Below, in pieces: positions 236 through 8,913 of a stretch of DNA of 24,108 nt. The DNA is from a virus. Lineage: Duplodnaviria > Heunggongvirae > Uroviricota > Caudoviricetes. Each line of letters opens with the position of its first letter. Position 1 is the stretch's first letter. Position numbers and translations under genes: made by a program. Under the pieces are notes generated by a model. The model was not told the origin of the DNA. It was given only the letters and a program-made list of their open reading frames with translations, and did not search any database. The stretch lies in IMG/VR virus record IMGVR_UViG_3300039330_000027, one strand, 5' to 3'.

Positions 236-1045
236 TCACTTAATTATTGGATAACTCACACAAGTATGACCGTTGCTTATCGCATACATTTGGTTTCCCT
301 TAAGATTTACAAATGGAAATGTCGTATACTCATAATTTATAGAGGTCATATTAAATGTAAGGAATTTATCCTCAAGTTCTAATTTTGTAGAGTGGGCAGG
401 GTATGTTCCTTCATTTTTCATTGTGATAATAAAACCGATAGGAAAAAAATGTAAAGCACAAATAAATGCCACATGTCCTTCGTTCATAAATGCTACACTT
501 TGAGCGGATATGTGCATTCTGTGTGGGTAAAACCAGTAGTAAATATCATGAGTTTCCTCAAAACTTGAATTTTTACCCAAAACATAATCCTTTAAAGGTG
601 TATAGAAGGGGCTATCTACGGGTTCTTTTTTACAATCTTCAACTGAAGTTGCTGATAGCACGTGCCCAATCATAGCCTTAGTGAAAGATATGCTATCAAA
701 AGGTATTCTAATGAATGGATATACATTCATACCATTCATATATCGACTTAACTGTTCTTTAAAGGACTTTGTTACATTTTCAATTGCAACATCGAGCCCA
801 CCTAATACCTTATTGTTACAGTGGCTGCAAATGGTTCTGAAATAAGAGCCATTTTTAGCATTTAATGGTTTAACTGGTTCCTGAATACCAAAAAATTCGC
901 TAACTGTTTTCTGCAAAACAGGGCCTAAGGTTATGGCGCACTTTGGAGGAACATGATCTTTTGTGAGCAAGCCATATTTCCCACAAATATTGCAATAACC
1001 TTCAGTAATGCCATTGTGCTTCCATCGTTCACTAATTTTCGTCAT
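236..1045 (-). CDS. Hypothetical protein with an N-terminal HNH-like zinc-finger nuclease motif (CxxC...DHxPP...CxxC) and a C-terminal domain of about 190 aa of unknown function
   Basis: 269-aa ORF on the minus strand in a markedly AT-rich block. RBS GAGGGA lies 6 nt upstream of the ATG at 1045. Motifs CNICGKYGLLTKDHVPPKC and CSHCNNK resemble an HNH core. No recognisable phage structural role. Confidence 0.6.
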   Translation of the reverse strand: MTKISERWKHNGITEGYCNICGKYGLLTKDHVPPKCAITLGPVLQKTVSEFFGIQEPVKPLNAKNGSYFRTICSHCNNKVLGGLDVAIENVTKSFKEQLSRYMNGMNVYPFIRIPFDSISFTKAMIGHVLSATSVEDCKKEPVDSPFYTPLKDYVLGKNSSFEETHDIYYWFYPHRMHISAQSVAFMNEGHVAFICALHFFPIGFIITMKNEGTYPAHSTKLELEDKFLTFNMTSINYEYTTFPFVNLKGNQMYAISNGHTCVSYPIIK

Positions 1046-1458: not shown

Positions 1459-1612
1459 TTTTATATTGGCGAGGTAACGGGAGTTAAGTAGAATGGCTGC
1501 GGGTGCTTGAGGCTATCTGTCTCAGGCATGAACACCAAAGGCAGATAGAGAAAAGCCCCAGTTAACATTACGCGTCCTGCAAGACGCTTAACATTAATCT
1601 GAGGCTCAATCT

Positions 1613-1825
1613 ATGAACGGCAAATCTAGGTTAGCCTCTTACGTGCCGAAAGGCAAGGAGAAGCAGGCTATGAAGCAGCAAAAGGCGATGTTAATCGCCC
1701 TGATCGTCATCTGTTTAACCGTCATTGTGACGGCACTGGTAACGAGGAAAGACCTCTGCGAGGTACGAATCCGAACCGGCCAGACGGAGGTCGCTGTCTT
1801 CACAGCTTACGAACCTGAGGAGTAA
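1613..1825 (+). CDS. mok: Mok-like overlapping reading frame (N-terminally extended form of Hok, modulator of killing)
   Basis: 70-aa ORF in the same frame as hok. The extension MNGKSRLASYVPKGKEKQA has the same pattern as the remembered E. coli MokC extension (KEKRAMKQ versus KEKQAMKQ here). Confidence 0.55.
   Translation: MNGKSRLASYVPKGKEKQAMKQQKAMLIALIVICLTVIVTALVTRKDLCEVRIRTGQTEVAVFTAYEPEE
1670..1825 (+). CDS. hok: Hok/Gef family type I toxin (small membrane-depolarising peptide), 51 aa
   Basis: Translation MKQQKAMLIALIVICLTVIVTALVTRKDLCEVRIRTGQTEVAVFTAYEPEE matches the Hok/Gef family and, from memory, is essentially identical to E. coli HokD (RelF). Confidence 0.85.
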   Translation: MKQQKAMLIALIVICLTVIVTALVTRKDLCEVRIRTGQTEVAVFTAYEPEE

Positions 1826-1892
1826 GAGACCTGGCGGGGGAGAAATCCCTCGCCACCTCTGATGTGTCAGGCATCCTCAACGCACCCGCACT

Positions 1893-1916
1893 TAACCCGC
1901 TTCGGCGTTTTTTCCG
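1893..1916 (+). terminator. Possible intrinsic terminator or hok mRNA 3' structure (GC hairpin with TTCG loop followed by TTTTTT)
   Basis: Sequence aacccgcttcggcgttttttcc lies downstream of the hok stop. The stem is short, so this could instead be part of the hok 3' fold-back (fbi) element. Confidence 0.35.
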
Positions 1917-1968
1917 TTGATTAACTCTAGTTATTAGAGAACCGAACTTTTATTGATGGGGCAGGGAG

Positions 1969-2361
1969 ATGAAGAAACTTGTTTTAGTCGCAGGTGTAAT
2001 GATTGCAACAGTAATGTTGGGAGGGTGTGCAGCAAAGATCGATCCAGCGTTGAAAGCAGAAGCAATGAAGCCACTAACATGTAATGATGAAAAGCAATGT
2101 GACTTTTATTGGAAACGAGCGCAATTCTGGTTGGCTAATAATTCCTCATGGAAAATTCAAACGGCGACAGACACGCTAATTTCCACTTATAATCCCTCTC
2201 CAAATAGTCCATTCCTCGCTTATCAAGTGAGTAAAATGCCAAATGAAGATGGATCCTCAAGAATTTTCATCAAGCCTTTTTGCGATAATATGTTTGGCTG
2301 TCAACCAAACCCCTATCAGGCAGTTGTTTCCTTTAAAAACTTCGTTAAAACAGGGCAGTAG
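1969..2361 (+). CDS. Putative secreted lipoprotein of unknown function (Cys-rich mature domain)
   Basis: 130-aa ORF with an N-terminal signal peptide and lipobox (MKKLVLVAGVMIATVMLGGC, Cys at position 20). The mature part contains four more Cys. AT-rich codon usage suggests an accessory (moron) gene. Confidence 0.7.
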   Translation: MKKLVLVAGVMIATVMLGGCAAKIDPALKAEAMKPLTCNDEKQCDFYWKRAQFWLANNSSWKIQTATDTLISTYNPSPNSPFLAYQVSKMPNEDGSSRIFIKPFCDNMFGCQPNPYQAVVSFKNFVKTGQ

Positions 2362-2560
2362 TGTATAGCTTGGACGATAAATTATTAGTGAAAACGCCGT
2401 AAACCCTCACCCAATGTGGACTAAGCCTATCAAACATGACTGTGATGATTAGTCCGTAGTTGTTGCCTATGAAATCTGGATTGAGTCAGGGTTTAATCCA
2501 ATAATTATTCTATCGTTCCTTTACAAGTCCGGTATATTACTTTCAGTTTGTTTTAGCATA

Positions 2561-2586
2561 CCCGCTTCGGCGGGTTTTGTTTTTTC
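2561..2586 (+). terminator. Rho-independent terminator
   Basis: Hairpin cccgc-ttcg-gcggg followed by ttttgttttttc, located between the accessory block and the downstream nin-like genes. Confidence 0.7.
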
Positions 2587-2657: not shown

Positions 2658-2936
2658 ATGGCGCACGATACCAAATTACACAATTCTGATGATTCTGCCG
2701 TCTTTGCCAGCAGGCGCGGGCGGCGTTCCCGCACTTTCAAATCTGACTGGTTCCAGCATGACCCATGTACTGAAGAACAGGCCGAATGGCTAATTCATAA
2801 CTATCGCAGACGCGGATACGAGATTAAGAAAGCCCTCAGCCTCGATTATCGTCACTGGATAATCTATGTCAGGCTCCCTTATTCCGAACGCCCACCGCGC
2901 CCATCCCGCACATACCAGCAACGGATCTGGAGGTAA
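2658..2936 (+). CDS. Hypothetical phage protein (92 aa); positional equivalent of rem in the Qin prophage, between hok and the DUF968 gene
   Basis: ORF whose stop overlaps the RBS and start of the DUF968 gene. The start is chosen as the first ATG downstream of the terminator T-run and is uncertain. No family recognised. Confidence 0.4.
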   Translation: MAHDTKLHNSDDSAVFASRRGRRSRTFKSDWFQHDPCTEEQAEWLIHNYRRRGYEIKKALSLDYRHWIIYVRLPYSERPPRPSRTYQQRIWR

Positions 2937-2937
2937 C

Positions 2938-3993
2938 GTGCGGATATTACTTCGACCTGTTCTGGTACCGGAACTTGGGCTGGTGGTCCTTAGGCCGGGC
3001 CGTGAATCCATGCAAGTATTTCATAACCCTCGAGTGCTGGTGGAGCCTGAACCGAAAAGCATGCGCGGTCTGCCGTCCGGAGTCGTCCCTGCCGTTCGCC
3101 AGCCGCTGGCGGAGGATAAATCATTACTGCCATTTTTCAGCGATGAGCGGGTGATTCGTGCTGCTGGCGGCGCTGGGGCACTGTCTGACTGGCTGTTGCG
3201 TCATGTCAAATCCTGCCAGTGGCCTCATGGTGACTATCATCACAGTGAAATCGTCATACATCGTTACGGTACCGGCGCGATGGTGTTGTGCTGGCACTGC
3301 GACAACCAGTTGCGTGACCAGACATCCGAATCACTCGGGCAGCTTGCTCATCAAAACCTGTCAGCATGGATGATTGACGTCATACGCCATGCAATGAATG
3401 GCACGCAGGAGCGGGAATTGTCGCTGGCTGAATTATCCTGGTGGGCGGTCTGCAATCAGGTGGCGGACGCGCTTCCGGAGGCAGTATTACGTCGTTCTCT
3501 GGGGTTACGTGCGGAAAAAATCCGCTCCTTGTACCGCGAAAGCGATATCGTACCGGGAGAGCAGACCGCCACCAGCATACTGAAGCAGCGCACAAAAAAT
3601 CTTGCGCCGTTGCCTCATGCCCACCAGCAAAACCCGCCACAGGAAAAGACGGTGGTCAGCATTGCCGTTGATCCGGAGTCTCCGGTTCAGTATCTCCAGC
3701 GCCAGAAACCACAACGGGAAGAGATGCCTGTATACACGCGCTGGGTAAAAACGCAGAAATGCATGACGTGCGGTAATCAGGCAGATGATCCGCATCACAT
3801 CATTGGTCATGGCCTGGGAGGTATGGGAACAAAGGCTGATGATTTGTTTGTTATTCCGCTGTGCCGTAAATGTCATAACGAACTGCACGCCGGGGTAAAA
3901 GATTTTGAAGAAAAACACGGCAGCCAGCTGTTGTTGCTGATTCGTTTTTTAATGCACGCGAGAAATTCGGGTGTTCTGAAGTGGAAAGCATGA
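2938..3993 (+). CDS. DUF968-family phage protein (YdfU-like) with a C-terminal HNH-like motif
   Basis: GTG start at 2938 is preceded by GGAGG at 2926-2930. The C-terminus CMTCGNQADDPHHIIGHGLGG...LCRKCHNELH is characteristic of DUF968 proteins found upstream of rusA and Q in lambdoid prophages. The ORF-track start at 2866 is judged too far upstream. Confidence 0.8.
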   Translation: MRILLRPVLVPELGLVVLRPGRESMQVFHNPRVLVEPEPKSMRGLPSGVVPAVRQPLAEDKSLLPFFSDERVIRAAGGAGALSDWLLRHVKSCQWPHGDYHHSEIVIHRYGTGAMVLCWHCDNQLRDQTSESLGQLAHQNLSAWMIDVIRHAMNGTQERELSLAELSWWAVCNQVADALPEAVLRRSLGLRAEKIRSLYRESDIVPGEQTATSILKQRTKNLAPLPHAHQQNPPQEKTVVSIAVDPESPVQYLQRQKPQREEMPVYTRWVKTQKCMTCGNQADDPHHIIGHGLGGMGTKADDLFVIPLCRKCHNELHAGVKDFEEKHGSQLLLLIRFLMHARNSGVLKWKA

Positions 3994-5217: not shown

Positions 5218-6096
5218 TTAAAGTAGTTTCCTATCTGCCGCCGCTCTGTGGCGTATAACCTTAGTAATACTATAGCGTGGTTTAGACAGCGCGCCATTTG
5301 TTTCTTTTGTTGTTTCTGTCAGTTCTACAACAAAAAGATCACCCTTACAGAATGCTGCTTGGTTGTGTTCAACCCGTTCAAGAAAAGCCTCATCTTTCAT
5401 AGATGCGCTAACTTCTTCGCCATTTGGCAGGATGATATCCCAGCTTTTGCCTTGCTTGAATCGAACATTAGCAAAATGTACATTAGCTTGGCGTGTCGTT
5501 ACGTGCGTTTTCTCGACAAAGGTGGATTTTGCAGTTTTAAAACTTACTGCTTCAGCTTGCGTCACCCTGACTACCTTATGCTTCTGCTGTGAAACTGAGA
5601 ACGTGGATGGTTTTTCAGTCTGCAGGGGTTTATAGATTAATTTATCCAGTTCTTTTCGGATGATTGGACTGGTTATTAATTTTTGAATGTCGTTACTGCA
5701 TTTAACCTTCTCACCATCCACTTCGATTTCTGCTGTATCTTTTTGTTCATCGACGACAATGGAGCTGATTTTACGCCCTTTGAGCCATTCGATTATCCCG
5801 AGTACGCCACCTGCGGCAACTCCACCACCTGCAACGAGGCCAAGGGCGTTAATAGTTTTTATGCTCCCCATCACAGCAACAAGCAAAGTAAATGAACCTT
5901 CTTTTGTTGCCTTGATGTTGACTTTCGGCTCTGCTGTTTCGCCATTAATTATTTTTTCGGCGTGTTCAATCAGGGCACTAAGAGAGGTTAAGGCTTCGCC
6001 TAATGTTTTCGCGTCGATCTGATTATCTGCGTATGCCTCTCCACCGTAGGCAATTTCGATTTCTGTTATTGGCATGTTTTCGAGTTGCTGCGTCAT
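5218..6096 (-). CDS. Hypothetical protein (about 292 aa) with a central glycine-zipper hydrophobic segment; first gene of the accessory two-gene operon
   Basis: Long minus-strand ORF antisense to the phage late operon. The start is placed at ATG 6096 (AGGA RBS 8 nt upstream) because the GTG at 6129 would sit within about 6 nt of the predicted transcription start. Segment GLVAGGGVAAGGVLGIIEWL looks membrane-inserting. No family recognised. Confidence 0.65.
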   Translation of the reverse strand: MTQQLENMPITEIEIAYGGEAYADNQIDAKTLGEALTSLSALIEHAEKIINGETAEPKVNIKATKEGSFTLLVAVMGSIKTINALGLVAGGGVAAGGVLGIIEWLKGRKISSIVVDEQKDTAEIEVDGEKVKCSNDIQKLITSPIIRKELDKLIYKPLQTEKPSTFSVSQQKHKVVRVTQAEAVSFKTAKSTFVEKTHVTTRQANVHFANVRFKQGKSWDIILPNGEEVSASMKDEAFLERVEHNQAAFCKGDLFVVELTETTKETNGALSKPRYSITKVIRHRAAADRKLL

Positions 6097-6139
6097 CAAA
6101 AGCATCCTTTGCGCAAGAGAAATAGCCACAGGATACAGA

Positions 6140-6240: not shown

Positions 6241-6322
6241 GTGTCACTTATCTCGGATAGACATGGTGAATGCGCTGGTGGAGGAGATAAGGGTGATTTT
6301 TAACCAGGTGATTTTTGAATGC

Positions 6323-6351
6323 TTGCAACATTGATTTCGTAACGTTATTAT
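6323..6351 (+). promoter_or_regulatory. Strong sigma-70-like promoter immediately upstream of the tRNA array (candidate tRNA promoter or late promoter pR')
   Basis: -35 TTGCAA (6323-6328), a 17-nt spacer, and -10 TATTAT (6346-6351). Predicted transcription start is a few nt before the first tRNA at 6361. Confidence 0.5.
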
Positions 6352-6360
6352 CCTGCGCCC

Positions 6361-6436
6361 GGCCCTTTAGCTCAGTGGTGAGAGCGAGCGACTCATAATC
6401 GCCAGGTCGCTGGTTCAAATCCAGCAAGGGCCACCA
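6361..6436 (+). tRNA. ileZ: tRNA with CAT anticodon, most similar to tRNA-Ile2 (lysidine type, ileX/ileZ-like); tRNA-Met not excluded
   Basis: Manual cloverleaf: acceptor ggccctt/aagggcc, D-arm tagctcagtggtgagagc, anticodon loop cTCATAAt, T-arm gctggTTCAAATccagc, encoded CCA. Resembles the remembered E. coli ileX. Confidence 0.8.
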
Positions 6437-6437
6437 A

Positions 6438-6514
6438 CCGCCACTAGCTCATCAGGAAAGAGCGTCAACCCTTTAAGTTGAGTGTGCGAGGTTCGAGTCC
6501 CCGGTGGCGGTCCA
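6438..6514 (+). tRNA. tRNA-like gene with atypical anticodon loop CCTTTAA (probably Lys-UUU-like but with C at position 33); assignment uncertain
   Basis: Folds into a cloverleaf: acceptor ccgccac/gtggcgg, D-stem gctc/gagc, anticodon stem tcaac/gttga, T-arm cgagg-TTCGAGT-ccccg (one mismatch), discriminator T, encoded CCA. The anticodon loop lacks the usual U33. Confidence 0.5.
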
Positions 6515-6516
6515 GT

Positions 6517-6592
<76 letters not shown>

Positions 6593-6595
6593 TAT

Positions 6596-6670
<75 letters not shown>

Positions 6671-6676
6671 GTCAGA

Positions 6677-6722
6677 GTCTTTCAGTCTGCGATGATGGGA
6701 AATCCCGGAGTGACTGAAAGAC
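6677..6722 (+). repeat. 11-bp perfect inverted repeat (gtctttcagtc / gactgaaagac) with a 24-nt loop, immediately 3' of the tRNA array
   Basis: Direct reading of the sequence. Followed by gttt; could be a tRNA 3'-processing or termination structure. Confidence 0.5.
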
Positions 6723-6730
6723 GTTTAAGT

Positions 6731-6801
6731 TATGAATGATCGCCTTTTTTTGCAAAATTGCTGTGCAGAAATACTAACCTTCGGGCAGGCGATCATTCAT
6801 A
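6731..6801 (+). repeat. 14-bp perfect inverted repeat (tatgaatgatcgcc / ggcgatcattcata) separated by 43 nt
   Basis: Direct reading. The left arm is followed by a T7 run. Function unknown (RNA structure, protein-binding site or insertion scar). Confidence 0.5.
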
Positions 6802-6878
6802 AGCACTCTGCTTTTATTCCGATCAACTGTGGGTGGTTTGTTGGATAGAGTGCTTTCCTTTCTGTATATATCGTTTCG

Positions 6879-6899
6879 CCCGCTTTTGCGGTTTTTTCT
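6879..6899 (+). terminator. Intrinsic terminator-like hairpin upstream of the holin gene (candidate tR')
   Basis: Sequence ccgc-tttt-gcgg followed by tttttt. Confidence 0.5.
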
Positions 6900-6962
6900 T
6901 TTCAAATCCCTTTCATTTCTCAGTGTAAAACTACGCCATCCGTTATTTGCGGAGGTGAGGCT

Positions 6963-7178
6963 ATGAAATCCATGGACAAAATTTCAACGGGCATTGCCTA
7001 CGGCACCTCCGCAGGCAGTGCTGGCTACTGGTTTTTACAGTGGCTTGATCAGGTCAGTCCGTCACAGTGGGCTGCGATTGGTGTACTTGGGAGTCTGGTT
7101 CTGGGCTTCCTGACTTATCTGACAAATCTGTACTTCAAAATCAGAGAAGACAAGCGTAAGGCTGCACGGGGAGAGTAA
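6963..7178 (+). CDS. S: Class II holin / pinholin of the phage 21 S type, with dual start motif (antiholin from Met1, holin from Met4)
   Basis: 71-aa translation [53 protein letters not shown]... matches the remembered S21 pinholin. RBS GGAGGTGAGG upstream. Confidence 0.9.
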
Positions 7179-7182
7179 TTCA

Positions 7183-7533
7183 ATGACTCAAAACTATGAA
7201 CTGATTGTGAAAGGGATCCGCAATTTTGAGAATAAAGTTACGGTAACTTTAGCGTTACGGGACAAAAAACGCTTTGACGGTGAAATTTTTGACCTGGACA
7301 TCTCGCTGGACCGTGTTGAAGGTGCCGCGCTGGAGTTTTATGAGGCAGCAGCCAGAATGAGCATCAGACAGGTCTTCCTGGATGTTGCTGCCGGGTTATG
7401 TGAAGGGGATGAGCAGTCGCCGGAAAAGCGCCCCGTAATTTTAGAGGCGCAGAATGTATGGATAACCTACAAAGGAAAGCTACCGGGAAGAATTACTGGT
7501 TCTCTGAAGACTCCTCCGGAATCACAACCTTAA
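7183..7533 (+). CDS. YdfR-like protein (DUF1327), conserved ORF between holin and endolysin as in the Qin prophage
   Basis: 116-aa ORF with RBS GGAGAG. Family assigned from position (essQ-ydfR-rrrQ arrangement) and remembered similarity; function unknown. Confidence 0.5.
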   Translation: MTQNYELIVKGIRNFENKVTVTLALRDKKRFDGEIFDLDISLDRVEGAALEFYEAAARMSIRQVFLDVAAGLCEGDEQSPEKRPVILEAQNVWITYKGKLPGRITGSLKTPPESQP

Positions 7534-8619: not shown

Positions 8620-8913
8620 TTATTGTGAGCAATACACACGCGCTTCCAGTGGAGTATAAATGCCTAAAGTAATAAAACCGAGAAATCCATTTACGAATGT
8701 TTGCTGGGTTTCTGTTTTAACAACATTTTCTGCGCCGCCACAAATTTTGGCTGCATCAACAGTTTTCTCCTGTCCAATTCCCGAAACGAAGAAATGATGG
8801 GTGATGGTTTCCTTTGGTGTTACTGCTGTCGGTTTGTTTCCAACAGTAAACGTCTGTTGAGCACATCCTGTAATAAGCATTGCCAGAGCGGCAGAAAACA
8901 ACATTTTTTTCAT
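8620..8913 (-). CDS. bor: Bor lipoprotein (serum-resistance / lysogenic-conversion protein)
   Basis: 97-aa translation MKKMLFSAALAMLITGCAQQTFTVGNKPTAVTPKETITHHFFVSGIGQEKTVDAAKICGGAENVVKTETQQTFVNGFLGFITLGIYTPLEARVYCSQ matches remembered lambda Bor. RBS AGGA lies 7 nt upstream of ATG 8913. Confidence 0.9.
   Translation of the reverse strand: MKKMLFSAALAMLITGCAQQTFTVGNKPTAVTPKETITHHFFVSGIGQEKTVDAAKICGGAENVVKTETQQTFVNGFLGFITLGIYTPLEARVYCSQ

What the first reader, a model, noticed from the sequence alone, without database searches (positions are those of the whole stretch)
1969..2361. Cys-rich lipoprotein moron adjacent to hok: candidate superinfection-exclusion or envelope factor
Seen in sequence: a clear lipoprotein signal (lipobox LGGC) followed by a 110-aa mature domain with four cysteines (two likely disulfides), AT-rich, followed by a strong terminator at 2561-2586. 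Established knowledge: prophage-encoded outer-membrane lipoproteins such as Cor, Llp and Bor block phage receptors or alter serum resistance. Inference: this is an independent accessory gene acting on the cell envelope; it is unrelated in sequence to the Bor encoded at 8620..8913.
Basis: partly seen in the sequence, partly recalled or inferred. Interest (0 to 1): 0.45.

Follow-up and report, generated by a model that had tools for sequence, protein, structure and literature searches.

The report
Mobile lipoprotein gene inserted beside hok
This is a real, strongly conserved but uncharacterised outer-membrane lipoprotein gene that moves as a single-gene cassette between prophages and small plasmids, and it probably protects the carrier cell at its envelope, although that function has not been tested.

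Summary
ORF 1969..2361 (+) encodes a 130-aa lipoprotein precursor: lipobox L-G-G-C, Cys20, Ala at +2, and four more cysteines. It lies in a 39% GC block between hokD and the intact terminator at 2560-2586.

It is a 665-bp insertion into the hok terminator. A related phage has the empty site. A 13-bp repeat flanks the insert. The left hairpin copy is broken, so the "strong terminator" is hok's own, displaced downstream.

The protein (WP_000737634, PHROG 16082) has no Pfam, NCBIfam, PADLOC or PDB match. It belongs to a large unnamed family: 1140 clusters at 50% identity, nearly all lipoproteins, with the four cysteines invariant. The predicted fold is confident (pLDDT 93) but only loosely like KA1 or BamC domains.

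Relatives sit at five different junctions in siphophage tail modules and after parDE in Yersinia prophages. They are almost the only cargo of 2.5-4 kb ColE1 plasmids. Some are fused to LysM or PDZ domains. Others stand alone in environmental chromosomes.

Purifying selection is strong (dN/dS about 0.04-0.11). The protein does not co-vary with the phage's J receptor-binding domain.

Best reading: an autonomous envelope-protection moron, most likely for phage exclusion (about 0.35). Immunity to a periplasmic toxin or hydrolase is the main rival. It is not a member of the Cor, Llp or Bor families.

The parts
1501..1825 (+). Context and insertion target: the hok/sok type I toxin-antitoxin locus (sok region 1501-1675; mok/hok ORF 1613-1825; hokD as annotated by PGAP corresponds to 1670-1825).
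   Evidence: Pfam HOK_GEF 3e-23. Rfam sok RF01794, 110 bits. Annotated hokD in the identical E. coli locus.
1895..1913 (+). Left copy of the hairpin repeat (ACCCGCTTCGGCG then TTTTTT). It marks the 5' junction of the insertion. Its 3' stem half (GGG) is missing, so it is no longer a stable terminator.
   Evidence: Direct repeat D1, spaced 665 bp. Folds at -4.6 kcal/mol, z = -0.1. Not reported by the terminator scan. Comparison with the empty site.
1914..1968 (+). 5' leader that travels with the gene. It holds a conserved TTTTAyTGATGGGG.AGGGA motif (ribosome-binding region). It also holds the position where relatives carry an extended -10-like TGnTAGGAT; the window copy reads TTATTAGAG and is weaker.
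   Evidence: Alignment of upstream regions from five other contexts. No consensus sigma-70 site was found here in the window.
1969..2361 (+). Lipoprotein precursor gene, 130 codons plus stop (WP_000737634.1; PHROG 16082).
   Evidence: Purifying selection.
1969..2025 (+). Signal peptide (residues 1-19): MKK n-region, hydrophobic core, and the lipobox residues L17-G18-G19 (2017-2025).
   Evidence: Read directly from the sequence. Lipobox conserved across the family. Modelled as disordered, pLDDT below 50.
2026..2028 (+). Cys20, the predicted lipid-modified N-terminal residue of the mature protein. Next is Ala21, which is not a Lol-avoidance residue, so sorting to the outer membrane is predicted.
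   Evidence: Invariant in alignments. +2 residue statistics. The +2 sorting rule is established knowledge for E. coli.
2029..2358 (+). Globular mature domain (110 aa). Layout: helix, short strand, long helix, four-stranded antiparallel sheet, C-terminal helix. It has two C-x5-C motifs: Cys38/Cys44 (2080-2082, 2098-2100) and Cys105/Cys111 (2281-2283, 2299-2301).
   Evidence: AlphaFold2 models with pLDDT 83.8 and 92.9, pTM 0.84. Cysteines invariant. The disulfide pairing is inferred, not measured.
2362..2559 (+). 3' spacer of the insert, 198 bp, 36.9% GC, no convincing ORF. It contains an imperfect inverted repeat (2400-2415 / 2480-2495). Its origin is unknown.
   Evidence: The fold is no more stable than shuffles (z = -0.31). 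No plasmid match. Present with the gene in 251 of 5426 E. coli genomes.
2560..2586 (+). Right copy of the repeat: the intact rho-independent terminator ACCCGCTTCGGCGGGT plus TTTTGTTTTTT. It is the original hok terminator and now ends any transcript that crosses the lipoprotein gene.
   Evidence: Terminator scan. -13.1 kcal/mol, z = -2.6. Identical to the terminator that directly follows hok in the empty-site phage vB_EcoS-640R1.

Best explanation
A 665-bp single-gene cassette (a moron) has been inserted into the terminator hairpin of the prophage's hok gene.

The cassette encodes a precursor that is predicted to be processed by the Lgt/LspA/Lnt pathway. [quoted passage not shown] It is a 12.6-kDa periplasm-facing globular domain. 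The four invariant cysteines probably form two DsbA-made disulfides.

In this window the hairpin copy next to hok is broken and no good sigma-70 promoter lies in the 55-nt leader. The gene is therefore probably transcribed constitutively in the lysogen by read-through from hok, possibly with help from a weak promoter of its own. Transcription ends at the displaced hok terminator.

Proposed function (inferred, not shown): the domain binds a conserved envelope component from the periplasmic side and so protects the carrier cell. The most likely form is exclusion of incoming phages at adsorption or DNA entry. It might also spare progeny phages from adsorbing to cell debris. This works in the manner of Llp, Rtp45, Cor or HK97 gp15, but with an unrelated, larger, disulfide-bonded protein. 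The activity does not appear to be tuned to the receptor-binding domain of its own phage.

The confidence of 0.35 refers to this functional mechanism. The structural claims (real gene, lipoprotein, inserted moron cassette) are much firmer, at about 0.85-0.9.
For: Shown:
- The ORF, lipobox, Ala at +2 and the conserved cysteines.
- A confident compact fold.
- Empty versus filled site, the 13-bp flanking repeat, and the broken left and intact right hairpins.
- Foreign base composition.
- The insert is present as a unit in 255 of 5426 complete E. coli genomes.
- A 5' leader conserved across contexts, and the gene's own terminator directly after the stop codon in six other contexts.
- Strong purifying selection.

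Pointing towards a phage-related envelope role:
- Relatives are inserted, co-oriented, at five different junctions in siphophage tail modules. These are H|M in Enterobacter, M|L, I|J in Pantoea, upstream of I-J together with a second lipoprotein gene, and just before the tape-measure gene in a distant metagenomic phage.
- The first moron ever described, HK97 gene 15, occupies this kind of position in the tail operon and is a superinfection-exclusion gene (PMC3594210).
- In Yersinia prophages the gene lies in the early region near sieB.
- The gene is almost the only cargo of 2.5-4 kb ColE1 plasmids seen on at least 1000 contigs. This suggests it pays its way as a single gene.
- Known exclusion lipoproteins (Llp, Rtp45) act from the periplasmic leaflet of the outer membrane (PMC12685063; bioRxiv 10.64898/2026.03.26.714494).
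Against: - There is no functional data and no homology to any characterised exclusion protein. The PHROG Cor match (E = 0.009) covers only the signal peptide. PADLOC finds nothing.
- The protein does not co-vary with the J receptor-binding domain. This removes the simplest version, masking of the phage's own receptor.
- Most of the family lies in environmental Pseudomonadota. The four distant chromosomal contexts examined are stand-alone genes with no phage genes called nearby (taxonomy).
- The LysM and PDZ fusions fit a peptidoglycan- or protease-related periplasmic role at least as well.
- Only 2 of 50,697 deposited phage genomes carry it.
- Expression in the lysogen is inferred. The window copy lacks the TGnTAGGAT motif seen in relatives.
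Confidence: 0.35

Rival explanations
1. It is a periplasmic immunity or inhibitor protein. The domain would neutralise an incoming envelope-acting enzyme or toxin, such as a T6SS peptidoglycan amidase or glycosidase, a bacteriocin such as a colicin M or pesticin type, a lysozyme, or a phage tail-tip NlpC/P60 peptidase. Mobile elements would carry it as an orphan immunity gene.
For: - A single-gene cassette is the main cargo of Col-type small plasmids.
- Fusions to LysM (peptidoglycan binding) in about 126 Acinetobacter plasmids and to PDZ in several environmental members place the domain next to the wall and its enzymes.
- Stand-alone chromosomal copies sit in variable neighbourhoods, one beside HEPN, RelB and transposase genes.
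- Strong conservation independent of phage tail type suggests a conserved target.
- All the lambdoid carriers encode an NlpC/P60 gpK.
Against: - No cognate toxin or effector gene was seen next to any member.
- No sequence or fold match to known immunity proteins or lysozyme inhibitors.
- Repeated insertion inside tail modules is not explained, unless the target is a tail enzyme.
Confidence: 0.2
2. It is a Cor/Llp-type masker of the phage's own receptor. The lipoprotein would bind the outer-membrane protein recognised by its own phage's J or receptor-binding protein and switch it off.
For: - Its position next to J or inside the distal-tail module in several phages.
- An outer-membrane lipoprotein facing the periplasm, like Llp and Rtp45 (PMC12685063).
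Against: - The lipoprotein is 81-86% identical between the E. coli carrier and the Enterobacter carrier or the L074/L075 IMG/VR contigs. Their J C-terminal 250 residues have no detectable similarity, and the N-terminal parts are only 32-35% identical.
- In E. coli and Yersinia the gene is far from the tail genes.
- It also sits on plasmids and chromosomes without any phage.
- The mature protein is 111 aa, against about 6 kDa for Llp and Rtp45.
- No sequence relationship to Cor.
Confidence: 0.1
3. It is a host-interaction or virulence factor of the Bor/Iss/TraT kind. An outer-membrane lipoprotein would raise serum or complement resistance, or otherwise alter the surface in animal hosts.
For: - It is a prophage lipoprotein moron in a prophage that also carries bor.
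- Many carriers are avian, urinary or livestock E. coli isolates.
Against: - It is unrelated to Bor.
- The family is mostly environmental (soil and water metagenomes, Casimicrobiaceae, Mycetohabitans, Shewanella), where serum is irrelevant.
- No enrichment analysis was done. The isolate sources simply mirror what has been sequenced.
Confidence: 0.07
4. It is an ordinary envelope-maintenance lipoprotein that mobile elements happen to carry, with no defence role. It might be a chaperone-like or scaffolding domain for a periplasmic protein.
For: - A large chromosomal family.
- PDZ, LysM and DUF4124 fusions typical of periplasmic housekeeping proteins.
- A loose fold resemblance to BamC domains.
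Against: - Distribution is patchy. It is in 4.7% of E. coli genomes, always inside prophage DNA, and is nearly absent from species-representative genomes.
- It has been captured repeatedly and independently by phages and tiny plasmids.
- The fold matches are not significant (E at least 0.015, TM at most 0.56).
Confidence: 0.12

Closest known systems
HK97 gene 15 moron (gp15, a superinfection-exclusion protein related to YebO)
   Same: - A single-gene moron with foreign composition, inserted co-oriented inside a siphophage tail operon. Relatives of the present gene sit at H|M, M|L, I|J and before the tape-measure gene.
- It has many non-phage bacterial homologues.
- The product is located in the envelope (PMC3594210).
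   Different: - gp15 is a small inner-membrane protein, not a lipoprotein, and there is no sequence relationship.
- In this window the gene lies in the nin region, not the tail operon.
- Exclusion has been demonstrated for gp15 and not for this gene.
Llp (phage T5) and Rtp45 (phage Rtp) superinfection-exclusion lipoproteins
   Same: - Phage-encoded lipoproteins of the inner leaflet of the outer membrane that act from the periplasmic side.
- They are encoded near receptor-binding or tail-tip genes in some carriers (PMC12685063; bioRxiv 10.64898/2026.03.26.714494).
   Different: - Those proteins are about 6 kDa and specific for the receptor of their own phage (FhuA, LptD).
- This protein is 12.6 kDa with four conserved cysteines and a helix/sheet sandwich fold.
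- It does not co-vary with J and is also carried on plasmids and chromosomes.
Cor (phi80, N15, HK022, T1; PHROG 1119)
   Same: A prophage moron lipoprotein of lambdoid and T1-like siphophages. It blocks FhuA-dependent phages and colicin M (as summarised in PMC3594210).
   Different: The only similarity is in the signal peptide (E = 0.009, residues 1-43). Size, cysteine pattern and distribution all differ.
Bor / Iss lipoproteins (one copy is in this window at 8620..8913, minus strand)
   Same: A prophage-encoded outer-membrane lipoprotein moron in the same prophage.
   Different: No sequence similarity. Bor is restricted to enterobacterial lambdoid phages and is linked to serum resistance. This family is spread across Pseudomonadota and across plasmids.
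KA1 domains, the AMPK alpha C-terminal domain, BamC domains and Flpp3 (fold level only)
   Same: A two-layer sandwich of a four- or five-stranded antiparallel sheet with helices packed on one face. BamC and Flpp3 are also lipoproteins.
   Different: Foldseek E-values are at least 0.015, TM-scores 0.4-0.56 and identity 5-17%. None of these has the two C-x5-C motifs. This is a resemblance of architecture, not evidence of homology or shared function.

Membership tests
Bacterial lipoprotein (Lgt/LspA/Lnt substrate) | An N-terminal signal peptide with a positive n-region and a hydrophobic core, ending in a lipobox [LVI][ASTVIG][GAS]C. | tested here: met
   MKK-LVLVAGVMIATVM-LGG-C20. The aligned position in relatives reads LSGC, LAGC, MVGC or LTAC. 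205 of 228 family members have the motif. No dedicated predictor (SignalP or LipoP) was available.
Bacterial lipoprotein (Lgt/LspA/Lnt substrate) | Actual lipid modification and LspA cleavage. | not testable with these tools
   Needs globomycin sensitivity, palmitate labelling or mass spectrometry.
Outer-membrane (Lol-sorted) lipoprotein | No inner-membrane retention signal (Asp at +2 in E. coli). | tested here: met
   +2 is Ala in the window protein. It is Ala in 161 of 205 family members and never Asp. The rule itself is established knowledge for Enterobacterales.
Phage moron (Juhala/Hendrix sense; PMC3594210) | An extra gene absent from the same position in closely related phages. | tested here: met
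   Phage vB_EcoS-640R1 has hok followed directly by the terminator and the downstream genes. The window has 665 extra bp. Flank-only matches occur in thousands of E. coli records, against 254 filled sites.
Phage moron (Juhala/Hendrix sense; PMC3594210) | Base composition different from the surrounding genes. | tested here: met
   39.2% GC against 51.6-59.1% upstream and 53.7% downstream.
Phage moron (Juhala/Hendrix sense; PMC3594210) | Its own promoter and terminator. | tested here: inconclusive
   Terminator: relatives carry their own directly after the stop codon, whereas the window copy uses the displaced hok terminator. Promoter: an extended -10-like TGnTAGGAT is present in three relatives but degenerate in the window, and the scan finds no sigma-70 consensus site.
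Phage moron (Juhala/Hendrix sense; PMC3594210) | Expressed from the repressed prophage. | not testable with these tools
   Needs transcript data from a lysogen.
Cor superinfection-exclusion family (PHROG 1119) | Sequence homology over the mature protein. | tested here: not met
   E = 0.0088, and only residues 1-43 (signal peptide and linker) align.
Llp/Rtp45-type exclusion lipoproteins | A small (about 6 kDa) lipoprotein encoded beside, and specific for, the receptor-binding protein of its own phage. | tested here: not met
   The mature protein is 12.6 kDa. It is not adjacent to tail genes in the window. There is no co-variation with the J C-terminus. Direct sequence comparison with Llp or Rtp45 was not run, because their sequences were not in hand. 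The PDB sequence search, whose copy dates from 2026 and should include deposited complexes, found nothing.
Bor/Iss family | Sequence homology. | tested here: not met
   BLASTP against the window's own Bor gives E = 0.17 over 10 residues. There is no Pfam hit.
Spanins (Rz1-type o-spanin or T1 gp11-type u-spanin) | A lipoprotein encoded in the lysis cassette. A u-spanin additionally has a C-terminal transmembrane helix. | tested here: not met
   The gene is not in the lysis cassette; holin, lysozyme and Rz lie at about 7.2-8.6 kb. The C-terminus is an amphipathic helix ending KNFVKTGQ, not a membrane span. The PHROG spanin hit has E = 0.24.
Known anti-phage defence systems (PADLOC-DB 2.0) | A match to any defence-protein model. 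| tested here: not met
   No family at E <= 0.01.
PHROG 16082 (unnamed phage protein family) | A full-length profile match. | tested here: met
   E = 2.9e-84 over residues 1-130 of 130. The family has no annotated function.

The most novel reading that the evidence does not exclude
The gene is the E. coli representative of a previously unnamed, widespread family of disulfide-bonded outer-membrane lipoprotein domains. The family has at least 1100 clusters at 50% identity, is absent from Pfam, and has no solved structure.

On this reading the family forms a new class of single-gene, horizontally mobile envelope defence. It would be carried interchangeably by siphophage tail modules, prophage early regions, ColE1 mini-plasmids and, as LysM or PDZ fusions, other replicons. 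It would act on one conserved periplasmic or outer-membrane target to block phage entry, or a periplasm-acting toxin, by a mechanism different from Cor, Llp and Rtp45.
Probability: 0.3. Interest if true: 0.65.

Novelty: new variant of a known kind. Interest (0 to 1): 0.45.

Why it matters
Prophage morons are a main source of lysogen phenotypes, yet most remain "hypothetical". This one has properties that make it a good experimental target:
- It is a single small gene.
- It is under strong constraint.
- It has been captured again and again by different mobile elements, including plasmids that carry almost nothing else.
- Its fold is confidently predicted but unassigned.

If it excludes phages or neutralises a periplasmic toxin, it would define a new family of envelope-level defence. 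That family is present in about 5% of E. coli genomes and in many Enterobacterales, which is relevant to phage therapy host range and to plasmid ecology. It would also give a function to an unnamed domain found across Pseudomonadota.

The way it was inserted also matters. It broke the hok terminator and reuses the displaced copy. This is a clear example of terminator hairpins serving as recombination or insertion points for morons, and it may alter hok mRNA biology.

Tried and rejected
- Pfam, NCBIfam and PADLOC scans of the protein gave nothing meaningful.
- The PHROG Cor and spanin hits cover only the signal peptide.
- Foldseek of two models against PDB and one against BFVD gave no match at E <= 0.001.
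- A profile search of PDB sequences matched only a signal peptide and bL19 noise.
- The search for related loci in genome contigs failed once because no stretch was conserved enough. It found nothing with A5 and only three metagenome-assembled genomes with A6. No taxonomic census of the family was therefore possible.
- tblastn against deposited phage genomes found only the two E. coli prophage-derived records.
- Literature searches for WP_000737634 and WP_032201349 returned no paper. A search on small ColE1 plasmids, lipoproteins and phage resistance gave nothing relevant.
- The spanin idea was rejected on position and the lack of a C-terminal membrane span.
- The own-receptor-masking idea was weakened by the comparison with J.
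- The 198-bp 3' spacer was tested for RNA structure (z = -0.31), for Rfam families (only sok upstream) and for plasmid matches (none). It remains unexplained.
- Disulfide connectivity could not be checked because the model coordinates cannot be read.
Full report
**1. The observation**

The product begins MKK, continues with 14 hydrophobic residues and ends the signal peptide with L-G-G-C20. Gly at -2 is uncommon, but the aligned position in relatives reads LSGC, LAGC, MVGC or LTAC.

A simple motif count found a lipobox in 205 of 228 family sequences. Residue +2 was Ala in 161 of them and never Asp. By the E. coli +2 rule this predicts sorting to the outer membrane.

The mature protein is 111 aa and 12.6 kDa, with cysteines at 38, 44, 105 and 111. 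The block 1914-2559 is 39.2% GC, against 51.6-59.1% for hok and its 3' UTR and 53.7% downstream. The terminator at 2560-2586 is real.

The upstream neighbour is a hokD/sok locus. Bor at 8620..8913 (-) is unrelated.

**2. What the locus is**

The window is a lambdoid prophage. In E. coli MSHS 133 it is integrated at tRNA-Ser/mtfA. The gene (WP_000737634.1, "hypothetical protein") lies between hokD and the DUF968/rusA/Q genes.

A related phage, vB_EcoS-640R1, has the same flanks with nothing between them. There hok is followed directly by ACCCGCTTCGGCGGGTTTTGTTTTTTCC. In the window the 13-mer ACCCGCTTCGGCG occurs twice, 665 bp apart (1895 and 2560), bracketing the AT-rich DNA.

The right copy is the intact terminator (-13.1 kcal/mol, z = -2.6). 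It is the same as in the empty site (-13.9). The left copy has lost the 3' half of its stem and no longer folds (-4.6 kcal/mol, z = -0.1). So the "strong terminator" is hok's own, pushed 665 bp downstream, and hok has lost its proximal terminator.

The 641-bp insert is present as a unit in 255 of 5426 complete E. coli genomes, always chromosomal. Flank-only matches occur in more than 4000 records.

**3. The cassette travels**

Upstream regions of relatives in five other contexts share a leader, TTTTAyTGATGGGGATAGGGAT(A/G)TG. Three of them have an extended -10-like TGnTAGGAT. Two (L015, L075) have a CCCGCTTCGG[CT]GGGTTTT hairpin about 75 bp before the start codon.

The hairpin is therefore part of the travelling unit. 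Recombination between it and the near-identical hok terminator would explain both the flanking repeat and the hybrid, broken left copy (inference).

Six relatives carry their own terminator directly after the stop codon. The window copy instead has a 198-bp spacer of unknown origin. The window's leader lacks a consensus sigma-70 site. Read-through from hok is therefore the most economical route to expression (inference).

**4. The protein family**

There are no hits in Pfam, NCBIfam, PADLOC or PDB sequences. PHROG 16082 (unknown function) matches over the full length.

A word-indexed search found only enterobacterial relatives of 66-84% identity plus truncated E. coli fragments, all "hypothetical". 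A profile search of 1.84 billion cluster representatives found 1140 proteins at E <= 1e-3 and 532 at E <= 1e-10.

Most are 125-135 aa lipoproteins. In a 49-sequence alignment reaching down to about 32% identity, the lipobox cysteine and C38, C44 and C105 are invariant and C111 is in at least 90%. All four are invariant in the 56-sequence alignment.

Some members carry a C-terminal PDZ domain. One has an N-terminal DUF4124 domain, and one is a tandem duplication. In about 126 Acinetobacter plasmids the lipid anchor is replaced by a signal peptide plus a LysM domain.

**5. Structure**

AlphaFold2 gives a confident model: pLDDT 83.8 for the precursor, and 92.9 with pTM 0.84 for the mature domain. 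The layout is a short helix, a short strand, a long helix, four antiparallel strands and a C-terminal helix. Each C-x5-C motif sits at a strand-to-helix turn.

Foldseek finds nothing significant in PDB or BFVD. The best resemblances are KA1 domains, the AMPK alpha C-terminal domain, BamC domains and Flpp3. Their E-values are at least 0.015 and TM-scores at most 0.56. This is shared architecture, not a family assignment.

**6. Genomic contexts of relatives**

| Context | Position of the gene | Identity to window protein |
|---|---|---|
| Enterobacter hormaechei prophage | between tape-measure (H) and M | 81% |
| A Logan contig (phage) | between M and L | 66% |
| Pantoea ananatis prophage | between I and J | 72% |
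| Two IMG/VR contigs | upstream of I-J, followed by a second, unrelated lipoprotein gene whose start overlaps its stop; an ant gene lies upstream in one of them (L075) | 78-84% |
| A distant metagenomic siphophage | immediately before the tape-measure gene | 31% |
| Yersinia enterocolitica prophages | right after parDE, near sieB and the repressor | 57% |
| Phytobacter | a prophage remnant | 68% |
| ColE1 plasmids of 2.5-8.6 kb (Salmonella, Citrobacter, Enterobacter) | with its own promoter-like region and terminator; almost the only cargo of the 2.5-4 kb ones; seen on at least 1000 contigs | 41% |
| Environmental members | stand-alone, variable neighbours, no recurrent partner | distant |

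Species-representative genomes almost never contain the family.

**7. Selection and co-variation**

Between carriers, synonymous sites are saturated (pS 0.6-0.99) while pN is 0.06-0.38. The three measurable pairs give dN/dS of 0.04-0.11.

The lipoprotein is 66-86% identical between the E. coli carrier and the others. Over the same comparisons the J N-terminal parts are 32-35% identical. The J C-terminal 250 residues, which form the receptor-binding part, have no detectable similarity in four of the five comparisons.

The protein is therefore one of the most constrained genes in these phages, and it is not matched to its phage's receptor-binding domain.

**8. Interpretation**

Three conclusions are well supported:
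- It is a real gene.
- It encodes a lipoprotein predicted to reach the outer membrane, with a compact and probably disulfide-bonded periplasmic domain.
- It is an autonomous moron cassette inserted into the hok terminator.

The function is inferred. Several observations point to a self-sufficient, envelope-level benefit connected with phage infection:
- Repeated, independent, co-oriented insertion into siphophage distal-tail modules. The founding moron, HK97 gene 15, sits in such a position and is an exclusion gene (PMC3594210).
- Presence in prophage early regions beside other accessory and exclusion genes.
- Carriage as sole cargo by tiny plasmids.

Known exclusion lipoproteins act from the periplasmic leaflet of the outer membrane on FhuA or LptD (PMC12685063; bioRxiv 10.64898/2026.03.26.714494).

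I therefore favour phage exclusion through binding of a conserved envelope component, at about 0.35. Masking of the phage's own receptor is disfavoured.

The main rival, at about 0.2, is an immunity or inhibitor function against a periplasm-acting enzyme or toxin. The LysM and PDZ fusions and the Col-plasmid carriage fit it well. A Bor-like host-interaction role and a plain housekeeping role are less likely.

**9. Comparison with known families**

The protein works like, or may work like, Cor, Llp, Rtp45 or gp15, but it is not a member of any of them. The Cor similarity is confined to the signal peptide. Its size and lack of co-variation with J fail the Llp/Rtp45 pattern. Bor is unrelated. The spanin features are absent.

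It meets the moron definition on three of five criteria. One (own promoter and terminator) is inconclusive and one (prophage expression) is untestable here.

**10. Verdict**

The object is an uncharacterised variant of a known kind, a prophage or plasmid accessory lipoprotein. It belongs to a large unnamed family.

It is a sound experimental candidate rather than a surprise. Interest 0.45.

Noticed in passing
window 5218..6129 (-): A 302-aa ORF matches PADLOC candidate defence system PDC-S42 (PDLC05015, E = 3.3e-53, residues 21-298 of the protein). It lies downstream of the Q gene region, so this prophage seems to carry a candidate anti-phage defence gene as well.
   Followed up: no
window 236..1045 (-): A 269-aa ORF sits in a very AT-rich block (30-38% GC) just upstream of hok, on the opposite strand. 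It matches PHROG 21495 (unknown function) over its full length (E = 1e-194) and has several CxxC-like motifs. There is no Pfam, NCBIfam or PADLOC match. It looks like another moron of unknown function.
   Followed up: partly
window 1880..1916 (+): The insertion removed the 3' half of the hok terminator stem. Full-length hok mRNA may now extend through the lipoprotein gene to 2586. That could change the 3'-end-dependent folding and processing that normally controls hok translation. The same arrangement is shared by about 250 E. coli genomes.
   Followed up: partly
window 2362..2559 (+): A 198-bp non-coding spacer (36.9% GC) lies between the stop codon and the terminator. It has an imperfect inverted repeat (2400-2415 / 2480-2495). 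It is absent from the cassettes in other contexts, which terminate directly after the gene. It has no Rfam family, no unusual fold stability and no plasmid match.
   Followed up: partly
L074 6374-6784 and L075 6332-6679 (IMG/VR contigs): In two tail-module contexts the lipoprotein gene is followed by a second, unrelated lipoprotein gene whose start overlaps its stop. One is PHROG 890 'lipoprotein' and the other PHROG 914 'unknown'. An anti-repressor (ant) gene lies upstream in L075. This forms a small moron cluster in front of gpI-gpJ.
   Followed up: partly
L005-L007 (Yersinia enterocolitica prophages), 6314-7402: The 57%-identical homologue sits directly downstream of a parD-parE toxin-antitoxin pair, just as the window copy sits directly downstream of hok/sok. 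Two different toxin-antitoxin modules as upstream neighbours may be coincidence. It may instead reflect shared moron hotspots or terminator-mediated insertion.
   Followed up: no
protein collection, cluster of the window protein: The 90%-identity cluster that holds this protein (1137 members) has an 87-aa partial fragment as its representative. It also lists many 70-aa Hok toxins as members. This looks like a clustering artefact, so cluster-size figures for this protein should not be trusted.
   Followed up: no
window 2658..2936 (+) and 2866..3993 (+): The 92-aa ORF downstream of the terminator is annotated 'hypothetical' by PGAP and 'toxin to Rem' in RAST-style phage records. It overlaps the start of the long form of the DUF968/HNH (YdfU-like) ORF. 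PGAP starts DUF968 immediately after it instead. There is no PADLOC hit.
   Followed up: no
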